Assembly: GCF_009914755.1 (NCBI RefSeq)
Contig: NC_060929.1
Origin: the human T2T-CHM13v2.0 reference genome, Homo sapiens
Reading direction: 5' to 3' (one strand)
Length of the DNA: 64,000 nt
The position numbers were made by a program, and so were the translations under genes. The notes under the pieces are model-generated. The model had not been told where the DNA came from and searched no databases. It saw only the letters and a list, made by a program, of their open reading frames with translations. Positions 25,002 through 49,156 of this stretch are shown one piece after another. Numbering within the stretch: position 1 is the stretch's first letter; the number at the start of each line of letters is the position of its first letter.

Positions 25002-25531
25002 TATAGGGGAGGCAAAAATATTTTTTCTCTACTCATCTCAAATTTTTCAGCCAAGGCCCTGTAAATTACTGTCAAAAGACAGGTTAACAGGAGAAAAGCA
25101 TATAAATTTAATTTAGTAATTTTTACAGTGCTTGGGAGTCTCACAAGAAAAATGACAACACTAACAAGCAGTTAGGGCTAAAAGCTTATGTACCAGTTTG
25201 GATAATGTGTAGTAAATTGTGAACATATGACATTACAAAGGGGTTTGTGATAGGAGAAAGTATAGAAAGATAAGTTTAAGCTAACCCAGTTTAACAAGCT
25301 TCATTTGTACAGATTTCTCTTGGCTTCAACTACTCATGTCTGGTGATAAGAATGTCTTCCTTCTGGTATACAAAGAATACCTTTCACATGGGGTTTATTT
25401 TCTGCTTTCAGAAAGACAAAAAGAAGCTCAGATTGCCCTTCTTTCATCTGCTGCTTTTTAAGTGCCTTTAACTTAAAATAATCCTATGCCAAACTGGCAT
25501 ATTTTAGGGTTGCATATTCTGTTACCCTACA
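25002..25531 (-). mobile_element. MER34-family solo LTR (ERV1)
   Basis: Minus strand starts tgtagggtaacagaatatgcaaccctaaaatatgcc. Confidence 0.72.
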
Positions 25532-25639
25532 GGTTCAATGTCAGAAATACCAAACCAAGAGGGTGAGTGGGTGCAACAGCAACCCAACATATATGATGGA
25601 AATTGGTACCAGACAGGTCCAGAGGGGCACAGGTAAGGT

Positions 25640-26154
25640 ACATGAACAGTTAGCTGATACCTCCATGACATCTACCCCTGTTGTATAAATACCTCTACCT
25701 CAACTCATATTATGGCCTAATAAGGGAATAGGTCTGGTTTACACATTGATCAGCTAGATTTGTTTATGCAGCCTGAAACTGTACAGTCGCCACAAACCCA
25801 GAGCAGTTCCTCAAGAAAGACGAGGGGAAGTCTTCACAATGGACAGAGCTTTGAGCAATATACCTGTTCACTAACTTGGTGTGGAGTGGAAATGGTCTGT
25901 GGTAAATATATACCCAGATTCATACGCAATGGCAAATGACTTGGTTAGGGTCCTACAAAGAATGAGATTTAAAAGTTAAAGACAAGAACTGCTCTGGGTG
26001 TGTGGCAACAGTACAGTTTCAGGCTGCATAAACAAATCTAGCTGATCAATGTGTAAACCAGACCTAATCCCTTATTAGGCCATAATACGAGTTGAGGTAG
26101 AGGTATTTACACAACAGGGTAGATGTCATGGGGGTATGGGCTAACTGTTCATGT
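25640..26154. repeat. Inverted repeat, arms 25640-25809 and 25986-26154
   Basis: Manual alignment gives 9 substitutions plus 1 indel over 170 bp, with a 176-bp spacer. Confidence 0.96.
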
Positions 26155-26647
26155 TAAAGACAAGGAGTATGGGAAAGAAGCATGCAGGAGGATCCATAAG
26201 AGTGGGAGCTAAATTTGTTGATACTTGTGTGTCATGTCAATTCCCACCAGAGATCCAAAAGAAGGCTCTGTACTACAGATGACTCATCCAGTAGATACCA
26301 GCTAGCCTCTGACTTTGGTCACTCCAGTATTTGCATAAGGAAGCCTTGGCAGGGAAGGGGGTATGCCCATCTCCAGAATCATGGGCCCCTCTGACTGATG
26401 CTGATCTAGCTGCTGCCACTGCTGAATATCCTGCATATTTACAGTGGAGACCAACACTGAGCCCTGCTTATGGGTGGATCTTGAGGCAGAACAACTAGCC
26501 ACTTAGTGGCAAGTTGTTTGATACAAACAAACACCCTCCACCAGGAAGAGGCAAAGAAATAATATGTGTTCTAGGTATAGATTTTTCTTCTTAACCCACA
26601 GTGCTTCAGCCAGCAGCTGTATTCAAGAGCTCACAGAGTATATTAAG

Positions 26648-27120
26648 TGTATTAGTCAGGGTTCTCTAGAGCGACAGAACTTACATATATATATATATAA
26701 TATATATATATATGGAGTTTATTAAGTATTAACTTAAATGATCATACATTAAGTATTAACTTAAATGATCATGAGGTCCCACAATAGGTTGTCTGCAAGC
26801 CTGAGGAGCAAGGAGAGCCAGTCTGAGACTCAAAACTGAAGAACCTGGGATCCAACGTTCCAGGGCAGGAAGCATCCAGCATGGGAGAAATGGGTAGGAT
26901 GGGAAACTAGGCCCGTCTCTCCTTTTCACGTTTTGCTGCCTGCTTTATGTTCACTGGCAGCTGATTACATGGTGCCCACCCAATTAAGGATGGGTCTGCC
27001 TCTCCCAGCCCACTGACTCAAATGTTAATCTCCTTTGACAACACCCTCACAGACACACCCAAGACCAATACTTTGTATCCTTCAATCCAATCAAGTTGAC
27101 ACGCAGTATGAACCATCACA
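26648..27120 (-). mobile_element. MLT2A1-like solo LTR with internal (TA)n
   Basis: tgtattagtcagggttctctagag...aaccatcaca. Confidence 0.9.
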
Positions 27121-27423
27121 CAGAGTATCTCATTTAACAACATAGGATCCCGTCTAAAATTAACTTGGACCTCCCAGATTATAAACAGTAAGGAAGGGAT
27201 CAGGTCTATCATGGACACCATTGTGCCCCCTGTGCCTTTCAGAATTCTGGGCCCTATGTAGGTACTAAATCGATATTTGTTAAAAGAAAAAGGAAGAAAT
27301 TTTGAAAACAAACATATTAAGTGTATTTAGAATTGTATTTCATGCCCTTCTCTATGAACATTGCCTCTAGTGACAAACCCACCAAATCTATTAGATACTG
27401 TTTTTCAAGAATAAAAAAGATGA

Positions 27424-46125: not shown

Positions 46126-48797
46126 TAGATGCTTATTAAATTTAGACATGAGGGACATGTAACTCTAAGAGAGCCATTTCTTTATAAATGGTTGCACAAA
46201 CCTCAAAAAGAAGAAGAAAAGGAAAAAGAAGACAAACAAGCTTTAGGGAATGTATTAGTATCAGGGTCCTGGTATTTTCTTATTAAGTGACCTTAGTAAA
46301 TACTGTGTTTCGAGTAAGTAAATAACACAAATATTGTTTGAATTTAGAAAAAGTAATTATCACTGCACTTTTTAGAAAAGTATGAAGTCTGCCATTATTT
46401 TAGAAAAAGTACATTCTTAAACTGGTAAACATAAATGGAATTCTGGAGTTAGCTTGGTTCTTAGGGAGTTAAAAAGACCCACATGGTGTTCAAAACGTTC
46501 TTAAAATATTTTTAAGAAAATGTGCTTTTGTTCTCACTGTGCTAAAGTACAAAAGCTCTCCTGAGGCACACCCTGGGCTTACCAGCTCAAGGCACTCTCT
46601 TAGGCAGTTAAAAAAAGAAAACCCCTACCTTCTCCTTGCTACATGAGCTGATTTCACAAGCCCTTTACACGCTTTATTTACTATTCATTTTCATCTTTGA
46701 GAGAGAAACTTGAAATATTTAATCACAGGATATTATTCTTTTAAAATGCTTGTTAAGCCAAGGATTTGGTAACTGGCAGAAAAAAAAGTGGCTACAACAG
46801 TCAGTTTAATTATTATCCCTGAAATTGCATTTTAAAATATTTTAATAATTAAAGAAGTTTTTGGAAAACCAAGCAAAGAACTAAGAGAATAAAGAGGCTC
46901 AAAAAATCCAAAGTAAGCCTGTCCGGTTGCATGTGTGTACACACACTTAATTCTTACATAAAGCCCAACAACATTAATCATGTCTGTAAAATGATAACCA
47001 CAACGACAGCTCTCGCTCTGCAGTCAGCCATACAAGGAAGCAGTTTCCAGCTATAACCCTCTACCATGAGCAAATAACTGACGAGCAGCGGTCCTTTTGT
47101 CAGATCCTGACAACTGAATCAATAAAAAGACACAGCAAAAGTTCAATCAGAACAGACACCACTAATACGACTGGCCTTTGGGGACCCACAGAAGCGTGGA
47201 ACTGCTTTTCCATGTTAATTTCTCTTCACTATCCCTTGGGGTTATCACCTTCTCTGGCCCCTGTTAATTAAAAACTGCCTCCTACTAAAGTTCCTTGGCA
47301 GGCATTTCCCTCGTGTCAGCCTATTCTGCTGACTGCTAAGAGAGGAAGAAATGAAGGAGGGAAGTGTTATGAAGCTGAGAATGTCACGATGCCAAAATCC
47401 TGCTCCTGTTCTCCCAGAAGACTGTGTGTATAATCAAATTTTTTATAGACTCATTTATAATAGTGGACTAACAAAAAATATCTAAGAACAATTAAAGATA
47501 ATACTATATCAAAGTCAAACATTAGTTGATAGCTATGTAGGCAAATCAGTAAGAGGTAGACAGTCTTGTCATACTATATTTTGGTTTAGCCTTATTTTGG
47601 AATTTGTTGAATTTAAGGAATTTTAATTACACATATATGTTTCTATTTGGTTACTGAAGATAACACTCACATTTTTGCACTCTTTCTCTTCCCATAACAG
47701 AGACAAACTTACTCCTACCTCTTTGCCAATTCCCAATTAACATCAAGATTGACCTTAAGGACCAGGTTACTTTTTATCTGTGTAAAAGCCTATAAGAAGA
47801 AATTTTTAGATTTAAAAAATGGCAGCTAGGTCCTTTTAACTATGTCAATGACAAACATGAATTATCTATAAGGCTAGGTGGTCACATTATTCCAAATTGA
47901 ATATCTGATTAAACATGCTTTTATTTTATACTAAAAATATAGTAATACATTTACACAATACAGAACTCCATACAGTAAAAAATAAAAGTCTCCTGGTACA
48001 TCAAGATTCTCCCAATCCTCTTGCCATCATTAATTATTACCAGCTTTTAGATTTTTGTTTACATTTATAAGCACACACATATAAATATATAATATTGTCT
48101 CATTACTTTTTTTAAAGTTTAAAAAAAGTAAAAATATTTTAATAACTGAAGAGGATTCCAGAATATGAATGAGTTGAAATTAATACAAATCATTCCCAAA
48201 GAAGAAATATTTAGTTCTGTCTAAACTTTTGCTCAAAAAATTTTGCTATGGTGACCAGCATTTCACAAATGCCTTTAAAACGTGTTTTAAAAATGATTTA
48301 TGTACGTGGTAAACATTCAAATAGATTTTCAGTGTGGACAATCCCTGTCTCTCTCAACAGGGAAAGTCATTCTCAGCAGTTTCTTCTGAATTTTTCAAGG
48401 GAGGCTGTGCTTTCAAGTGTGTATTTGAATAAATGCATTATATATATATGTATATAAATGTAGAAACACATATACACACATACACACATATACACATACA
48501 TTTTTTGATGCACAAGTGATACCATACACACTGTTCTACAAACTTGCTTCGTTTTATTTATATGGGGAAAAATGTTACAAATCAGCCCATATGGATTTCC
48601 TGTATTCATATTTATGTAACTTTGAAGGGGTAATATATTCATTGCTCAAATACATATAAGAAAAAATATAAAATGTTTTTGTGTGTAATATATAAGAATG
48701 TATTATGTTTTTATTTCTTTTAATAATTTTTAATATTTTTATGTTTTTTATTTTTTATTTTTAAATTTTTTAGTCATTACTTATATAACACAACCAT

Positions 48798-49156
48798 AAC
48801 ATATATCTTTTTTATTATTATACTTTTGTTATCATACTTTTTTATTATTATACTTTTTATTATTACACCAAGATTATGTCTGGAAACTGCTTCCTTGCAT
48901 GGCTGACTGCAGAGCAAGAGCTGTTGTTGTGGTTATCATTTAACAGACATGATGAATGTTGTTGGGCTTTATGTAAGAATTATTATATTTTATATTTATA
49001 CTTTTATTATTATACTTTATTATTATATATTATACTTTAATATAATACTTTTATTATTATACTTTAAGTTCTAGGGTACAGGTGAACAACATGCAGGTTT
49101 GTTACACAGGTATACATATGTCATGTTGCTTTGCTGCACCCAACATACATCTTTTT
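48798..49156 (-). mobile_element. Composite L1PA 3'-end insertion with reiterated tail and captured local DNA
   Basis: TSD AACATA(T/C)ATCTTTTT; L1PA 3' end at 49049-49142; inverted copy of 46948-47050 at 48880-48982. Confidence 0.9.

What the first reader, a model, noticed from the sequence alone, without database searches (positions are those of the whole stretch)
25640..26164. 170-bp inverted duplication inserted between 12-bp direct repeats
25986-26154 is the reverse complement of 25640-25809 (9 substitutions, 1 indel). It is bracketed by GTTAAAGACAAG at 25975-25986 and 26153-26164, overlapping the insert ends by 1-2 nt of microhomology, with no poly(A). The copies are far more alike than the ancient ERVL host would explain. 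This looks like a staggered break filled by copying the opposite strand a few hundred bp away. The result is a 170-bp stem with a 176-nt loop, which could be an ADAR/Dicer substrate if transcribed (inference).
Basis: partly seen in the sequence, partly recalled or inferred. Interest (0 to 1): 0.7.

Follow-up and report, generated by a model that had tools for sequence, protein, structure and literature searches.

The report
Fossil inverted copy-paste repair scar
A 170-base piece of a long-dead retroviral relic in human DNA was copied backwards into a spot 176 bases away, likely while a staggered DNA break was being repaired millions of years ago; it is a clean example of a known kind of mutation, and no function is evident.

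Summary
25986-26154 is the reverse complement of 25640-25809 (9 substitutions, 1 indel) and lies between two unique copies of a 12-mer with 1- and 2-nt junction overlaps. Related retroviral-relic copies elsewhere in the genome lack exactly 178 nt here (29 of 32 loci). So the right arm plus one 12-mer is a later insertion and not part of the element. In switch-point terms this is a '3-2-4-1' templated inverted insertion, a class already reported in great apes. Most likely (0.55) a staggered break with 9-12-nt 3' overhangs was repaired by local inverted copying and end joining. An L1-endonuclease-like TTTT/A lies on the expected strand 4 nt outside the repeat (3% by chance), but there is no poly(A) or L1 sequence. 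A replication-fork template switch (0.33) cannot be excluded. Both arms have drifted (about 12-27 Myr at assumed rates). The hairpin folds strongly, but it has no Rfam match and shows no sign of selection; expression and editing are untested. New member of a known kind; low interest.

The parts
25640..25809 (+). Donor arm: original host sequence, colinear with related retroviral-relic copies
25810..25985 (+). 176-nt spacer (loop), not inverted, colinear with related copies
25975..25986 (+). Left copy of the 12-nt direct repeat (target-site duplication; 9-12 nt given the junction overlaps)
25986..26154 (-). Inserted inverted copy of 25640-25809 (166 nt unique, 25987-26152, plus 1 and 2 nt of microhomology)
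26153..26164 (+). Right copy of the 12-nt direct repeat
25969..25974 (-). L1-endonuclease-like TTTT/AA on the bottom strand; the cut would fall between 25970 and 25971, 4 nt outside the left repeat edge
   Evidence: motif from PMC5110952
25976..25981 (-). Relaxed L1-endonuclease-like CTTT/AA; the cut would fall between 25977 and 25978, 3 nt inside the repeat
   Evidence: relaxed motif list is my own, from recall
25529..26600 (+). Decayed endogenous-retrovirus pol stretch (ERVL-like; name recalled from motifs) that hosts the event; many stops and frame changes
   Evidence: integrase-core match in related copy L024

Best explanation
This is a one-off insertion of a backwards copy of neighbouring DNA between two 12-base direct repeats, most likely left by repair of a staggered double-strand break, and likely without function. 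Shown: the right arm and one 12-mer were added to an older retroviral relic, and the junctions have 1 and 2 nt of microhomology. Inferred steps: (1) nicks about 9-12 nt apart on opposite strands left 3' overhangs; L1 ORF2p endonuclease is the leading candidate for the nicks (about 0.3-0.35 overall). (2) One 3' end primed on nearby sequence in the inverted sense and copied about 169 nt; either the left end folded back on its own resected strand at 25809, or the right end primed on the bottom strand at 25640. (3) The new strand was joined to the other end through 1-2 nt, and fill-in duplicated the overhang. (4) Both arms have drifted neutrally since, roughly 12-27 Myr at assumed rates.
For: Polarity: 29 of 32 related loci imply exactly 178 missing nt, i.e. 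166 + 12 (26 of the 27 that passed the score filter); none holds a comparable arm pair. The 12-nt repeat is beyond chance, 0 of 8000. A strict TTTT/A lies on the strand and side where a first nick must be, within -4..+2 nt of the edge; 3.2% of window positions have that. L1-induced breaks give local inverted duplications that keep a TSD and have 2-bp junction homology, and TSD-like duplications are said to be rare at nuclease or radiation breaks (10.1101/2024.12.14.628481, passages). Fold-back duplications of about 52-220 bp next to somatic L1 targets are reported (PMC10191854, passages). In yeast, one end primes locally and NHEJ captures the product with a median 2 bp of homology (PMC11724301, passages). 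Neutral decay: against 29 related copies, 2 differences map to the left arm, 5 to the right and 2 are unresolved (2 vs 5, p=0.45).
Against: There is no poly(A), L1 sequence or cDNA at either junction. Neither endonuclease-like motif sits exactly at the repeat edge (4 nt outside, 3 nt inside), so trimming or an extra base must be assumed. The motif test was post hoc; counting either end, either strand and relaxed motifs, the chance rises to 42%. The fold-back priming site is energetically poor (rank 639 of 974 upstream sites). The loop is 176 nt, whereas the published L1-linked inverted duplications involve small hairpins and the yeast case uses a 10-bp homology with a 41-nt loop. Walker et al. 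explain the same geometry by template switching during replication.
Confidence: 0.55

Rival explanations
1. Short-range template switch at a replication fork (four-point model, order 3-2-4-1). The polymerase left at 25986, copied 25809 to 25640 from the other strand or from the nascent strand, and returned 12 nt behind its departure point. No endonuclease was involved.
For: The geometry fits exactly. Walker et al. found many '4 before 1' events in great apes; these appear as one large insertion with a direct repeat (PMC7954356, section 8 and S5 legend). Long pre-existing homology is not needed (PMC5453318). It needs no missing L1 hallmark.
Against: 169 nt is in the far tail: median 12 and maximum 128 in Walker's 1503 gold-standard events, although maxima of 97-180 (318 with repeats) are reported per human haplotype set. 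It requires reopening 12 bp of new duplex. It leaves the 12-nt length and the nearby TTTT/A as coincidence (3%).
Confidence: 0.33
2. L1 ORF2p reverse-transcribed a local minus-strand nascent RNA (the predicted lncRNA intron) by internal priming at the nick, giving a tail-less cDNA inserted next to its own source.
For: The orientation fits: a bottom-strand primer copying a minus-strand RNA gives this insert. The site lies in an intron of the predicted minus-strand lncRNA LOC124901056 (hub annotation). Co-insertion of locally transcribed pre-mRNA has been seen once (PMC10191854).
Against: There is no poly(A) and no A-run in the template at the priming point. The lncRNA model is predicted only. 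Class 1 TSIPs carry poly(A) and distant donors.
Confidence: 0.08
3. The pair is a selected RNA hairpin (editing or small-RNA source), or a native feature of the retroviral family.
For: Very stable fold on both strands; uninterrupted helices up to 56 bp; template switches have created primate miRNA hairpins (PMC10710096).
Against: Absent from related copies. No Rfam match at E<=0.1. 6-7 of the 9 substitutions break pairing on either strand. The 56-nt perfect run is not unusual (p=0.18). The stem is far longer than the 30-55 nt used for miRNA-like hairpins.
Confidence: 0.04

Closest known systems
Short-range template-switch mutations, '4 before 1' type (Walker et al. 2021, PMC7954356; model of Loytynoja & Goldman 2017, PMC5453318)
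   Same: Inverted copy of nearby sequence, a direct repeat created by returning behind the departure point, minimal homology, and the look of one large insertion.
   Different: 169 nt against median 12 and maximum 128 in the gold-standard set; probably older than the human-chimp-gorilla splits that those studies cover (inferred from 5.3% arm divergence).
Inverted duplication at ORF2p-induced break ends (Mendez-Dorantes et al., 10.1101/2024.12.14.628481; Nam et al. 2023, PMC10191854)
   Same: Local inverted duplication of 52-220 bp scale, TSD kept, 1-2 bp junction homology, endonuclease-like motif on the expected strand and side.
   Different: The published cases are somatic, accompany an L1 or cDNA insert, and use small hairpins. 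Here there is no retro-sequence, the loop is 176 nt, and the event is in the germline reference.
Local fold-back templated insertions at double-strand breaks (Yu et al. 2025, PMC11724301, yeast)
   Same: One end primes inverted synthesis and the other end captures it with 0-5 bp of homology.
   Different: The yeast events use a 10-bp inverted homology and are mostly under 14 bp (up to about 150).
Templated sequence insertion polymorphisms (Onozawa & Aplan 2016, PMC5110952)
   Same: Templated insert; TSD as in class 1; microhomology as in repair patches.
   Different: The donor is adjacent, not distant; there is no poly(A) (class 1 not met).

Membership tests
Four-point template-switch mutation (3-2-4-1) | Insert is the reverse complement of a nearby segment of the same locus | tested here: met
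Four-point template-switch mutation (3-2-4-1) | Direction resolved: descendant carries the insert plus a direct repeat | tested here: met
   29 of 32 related loci lack exactly 178 nt; paralogues, not orthologues
Four-point template-switch mutation (3-2-4-1) | Arose at a replication fork | not testable with these tools
   sequence outcome identical to break repair
L1 ORF2p TPRT product / class 1 TSIP | Target-site duplication | tested here: met
   12 nt (9-12)
L1 ORF2p TPRT product / class 1 TSIP | Poly(A) tail | tested here: not met
L1 ORF2p TPRT product / class 1 TSIP | TTTT/A cut at the TSD edge | tested here: inconclusive
   strict site 4 nt outside, relaxed site 3 nt inside; chance 3-12% strand-specific
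L1 ORF2p TPRT product / class 1 TSIP | Distant donor locus | tested here: not met
   only donor in the genome search is 176 nt away
Native feature of the ERV family | Inverted pair present in other copies | tested here: not met
   29 of 32 loci have no self-inverted hit; 3 have only a 54-68-nt self-overlapping palindrome
Known structured RNA / miRNA | Match to an Rfam family | tested here: not met
   0 matches at E<=0.1, 25400-26400
ADAR/Dicer substrate | Transcribed and edited or diced in cells | not testable with these tools
   only the fold was computed
ERVL internal (pol) host | Named repeat-library match | tested here: inconclusive
   No Pfam hit in 6 frames of the window stretch; 85 other genomic matches; rve domain in related copy L024, E 2.9e-12; the ERVL name is recalled, not from a call

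The most novel reading that the evidence does not exclude
This is a germline fossil of an aborted L1 target-primed reaction. ORF2p made the staggered cut, no retrotransposon was inserted, and the break was patched with an inverted copy of local DNA. Such 'L1-less, TSD-flanked inverted duplications' would be an uncounted L1-driven source of long perfect hairpins in primate genomes.
Probability: 0.25. Interest if true: 0.55.

Novelty: new member of a known kind. Interest (0 to 1): 0.22.

Why it matters
Alone it is a neutral-looking scar in a gene-poor region. Its value is as a clean, polarised example at the long end of a known mutation class. If many such events show 7-20-nt repeats and strand-correct TTTT/A motifs, L1 endonuclease would be creating non-Alu long inverted repeats (potential dsRNA) without leaving L1 sequence. 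That can be tested in existing primate alignments.

Tried and rejected
Pfam on six frames of the host stretch, stops read as X: 0 of 6 frames matched. A permissive single alignment to 6 related loci was too gappy to use and was replaced by separate flank alignments. A DNA search with the spacer alone found only itself. Longer hidden microhomology: at 6 positions just outside the junctions, 29 related copies mostly agree with the window at 4. At the other 2 (25638, 25812) many carry a base that would pair, but neither is adjacent to the junction, and the host differs from them by 30-35%, so this was not counted. Homogenisation of the arms: the 56-nt perfect run is not significant (p=0.18). Strong fold-back seed: not found. 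Rate survey: 2 near inverted pairs (>=40 nt, >=88%, <=3 kb apart) in 214,871 nt of 39 sequences, both in this window, and only this one has an exact flanking repeat. The sample is small and 34 of the 39 sequences are ERV-biased, so no genome-wide rate is claimed. The supplements of PMC7954356 held as text gave no event-type counts (0 of 6 files). Locus in print: searches for LOC124901056 and LINC02240 gave 6 papers with one passing mention of LINC02240 each (listing only). Rejected: assembly artefact (the arms differ at 10 sites and each has its own changes); segmental duplication (no other copy).

Full report
1. Observation. It is one of only two non-overlapping inverted pairs of 50 nt or more lying within 5 kb of each other in the window. 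The 12-mer GTTAAAGACAAG occurs only at 25975 and 26153; it overlaps the insert by 1 and 2 nt. None of 8000 random intervals had a flanking repeat that long. There is no poly(A).

2. Host and polarity. The host reads as a decayed retroviral pol stretch with many stops. Pfam finds nothing in it (0 of 6 frames). A protein search of the genome gives 85 other matches (150 of 254 candidates scored), and one related copy carries an integrase core downstream. The label ERVL is recalled from motifs and comes from no call. I aligned the upstream flank (25500-25986) and the downstream flank (26153-26600) separately to 32 related loci (28, 4). 27 passed a score filter: 26 imply exactly 178 missing nt and one implies 180. 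Of the 5 that failed the filter, 3 also gave 178 and 2 misaligned (449, 360). None holds a comparable arm pair. 178 = 166 unique nt + one 12-mer. So the left arm and spacer are original, and the right arm plus one 12-mer is the insertion. This rests on paralogues; no primate orthologues were available.

3. Age and decay. Arm divergence is 5.3% (95% CI 2.5-9.9%), against 30-35% between the host and its relatives. At assumed rates of 1.0-2.2e-9 per site per year (recalled) this is 12-27 Myr, range 6-49. Against 29 related copies, 2 differences map to the left arm, 5 to the right and 2 are unresolved, which is compatible with drift on both arms (p=0.45). There is no significant clustering of the differences (p=0.18).

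4. Mechanism. In four-point notation the order is 3-2-4-1: departure at 25986, copying 25809 to 25640, return at 25975. Loytynoja and Goldman saw no '4 before 1' events (PMC5453318, passages). Walker et al. showed that this was a filter artefact and found many (PMC7954356, section 8 read whole). The class is therefore known; this case is long for it (median 12, maximum 128 in 1503 events; maxima of 97-180, or 318 with repeats, in 10.1101/2021.11.26.470150, passages).

The same outcome follows from a staggered break with 3' overhangs. Mendez-Dorantes et al. describe inverted duplications at ORF2p-made ends that keep the TSD and have 2-bp homology (2026 version, passages; 2024 version, passages). 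Nam et al. saw 52-220-bp fold-back duplications beside 4 somatic L1 insertions, 0.3% + 0.1% (passages). Zumalave et al. saw 22 templated insertions under 250 bp within L1s (passages). Yu et al. give the genetics in yeast (passages). Supplements of the bioRxiv papers could not be seen and may hold closer examples.

In that model the first nick must be on the bottom strand at the left repeat edge. A strict TTTT/A lies 4 nt outside it and a relaxed CTTT/A 3 nt inside; 3.2% of window positions have a strict site within -4..+2. With looser criteria the chance is 12-42%, and the test was post hoc. Against this model: there is no retro-sequence, the motif is not exactly at the edge, the fold-back seed is weak (rank 639 of 974), and the loop is large. 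I put staggered-break repair at 0.55 (L1-made nicks about 0.3-0.35 overall), fork switching at 0.33, RNA-templated copying at 0.08, and a native or selected hairpin at 0.04. Which end primed, and so which strand was copied, cannot be read from the sequence.

5. Function. Either strand would fold into a long stem (-328/-331 kcal/mol, z about -30) with uninterrupted helices up to 56 bp. The site lies in an intron of a predicted minus-strand lncRNA (hub annotation), so editing is possible if it is transcribed. Nothing here shows that: Rfam has no match, most substitutions break pairing, and the stem exceeds the 30-55 nt used for template-switch-derived miRNA-like hairpins, of which over 6,000 were counted in the primate lineage (PMC10710096, passages).

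6. Context. A second local inverted copy lies in the same window: 46948-47056 is copied (102 of 109 nt identical) into the A-rich tail of a short high-copy repeat fragment that looks like an L1 3' end (identity recalled). It suggests that L1-linked local inverted copying has happened in this region at a similar age, but it is not evidence about the event at 25986. In 214,871 nt surveyed these were the only two such pairs.

7. Verdict. Real, polarised, and a new member of a known kind. It fails class 1 TSIP membership (no poly(A), local donor; PMC5110952, abstract and first quarter read) but resembles ORF2p-end remodelling. My searches found no description of this locus (listings only), and the library lacks most subscription papers. 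Interest 0.22; 0.55 if it proves to represent an L1-driven class without L1 sequence (probability about 0.25).

Noticed in passing
window 46948-47056 and 48874-48982: Second local inverted copy (109 nt, 93.6%, 1817 nt apart). The copy sits among repeated TTTTATTATTATACT units in the tail of a ~95-nt high-copy fragment (49049-49142; 1601 candidates) that looks like an L1 3' end (recalled). A near-direct repeat of about 16 nt flanks it at 48798 and 49142. Likely a germline L1 insertion with a templated local segment; polarity not tested against outgroups.
   Followed up: partly
window 26632-26653, 27119-27128, 27314-27327: An LTR-like element (~26648-27120, MLT2-like by recall) interrupts the same retroviral relic. 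It is flanked by a 10-nt direct repeat plus 6 extra nt on the left, and the 14-mer spanning that left junction recurs exactly at 27314-27327. Possibly a small templated junction insertion.
   Followed up: partly
window 26721-26772: Perfect 25-nt duplication (spacing 27) inside the LTR-like element.
   Followed up: no
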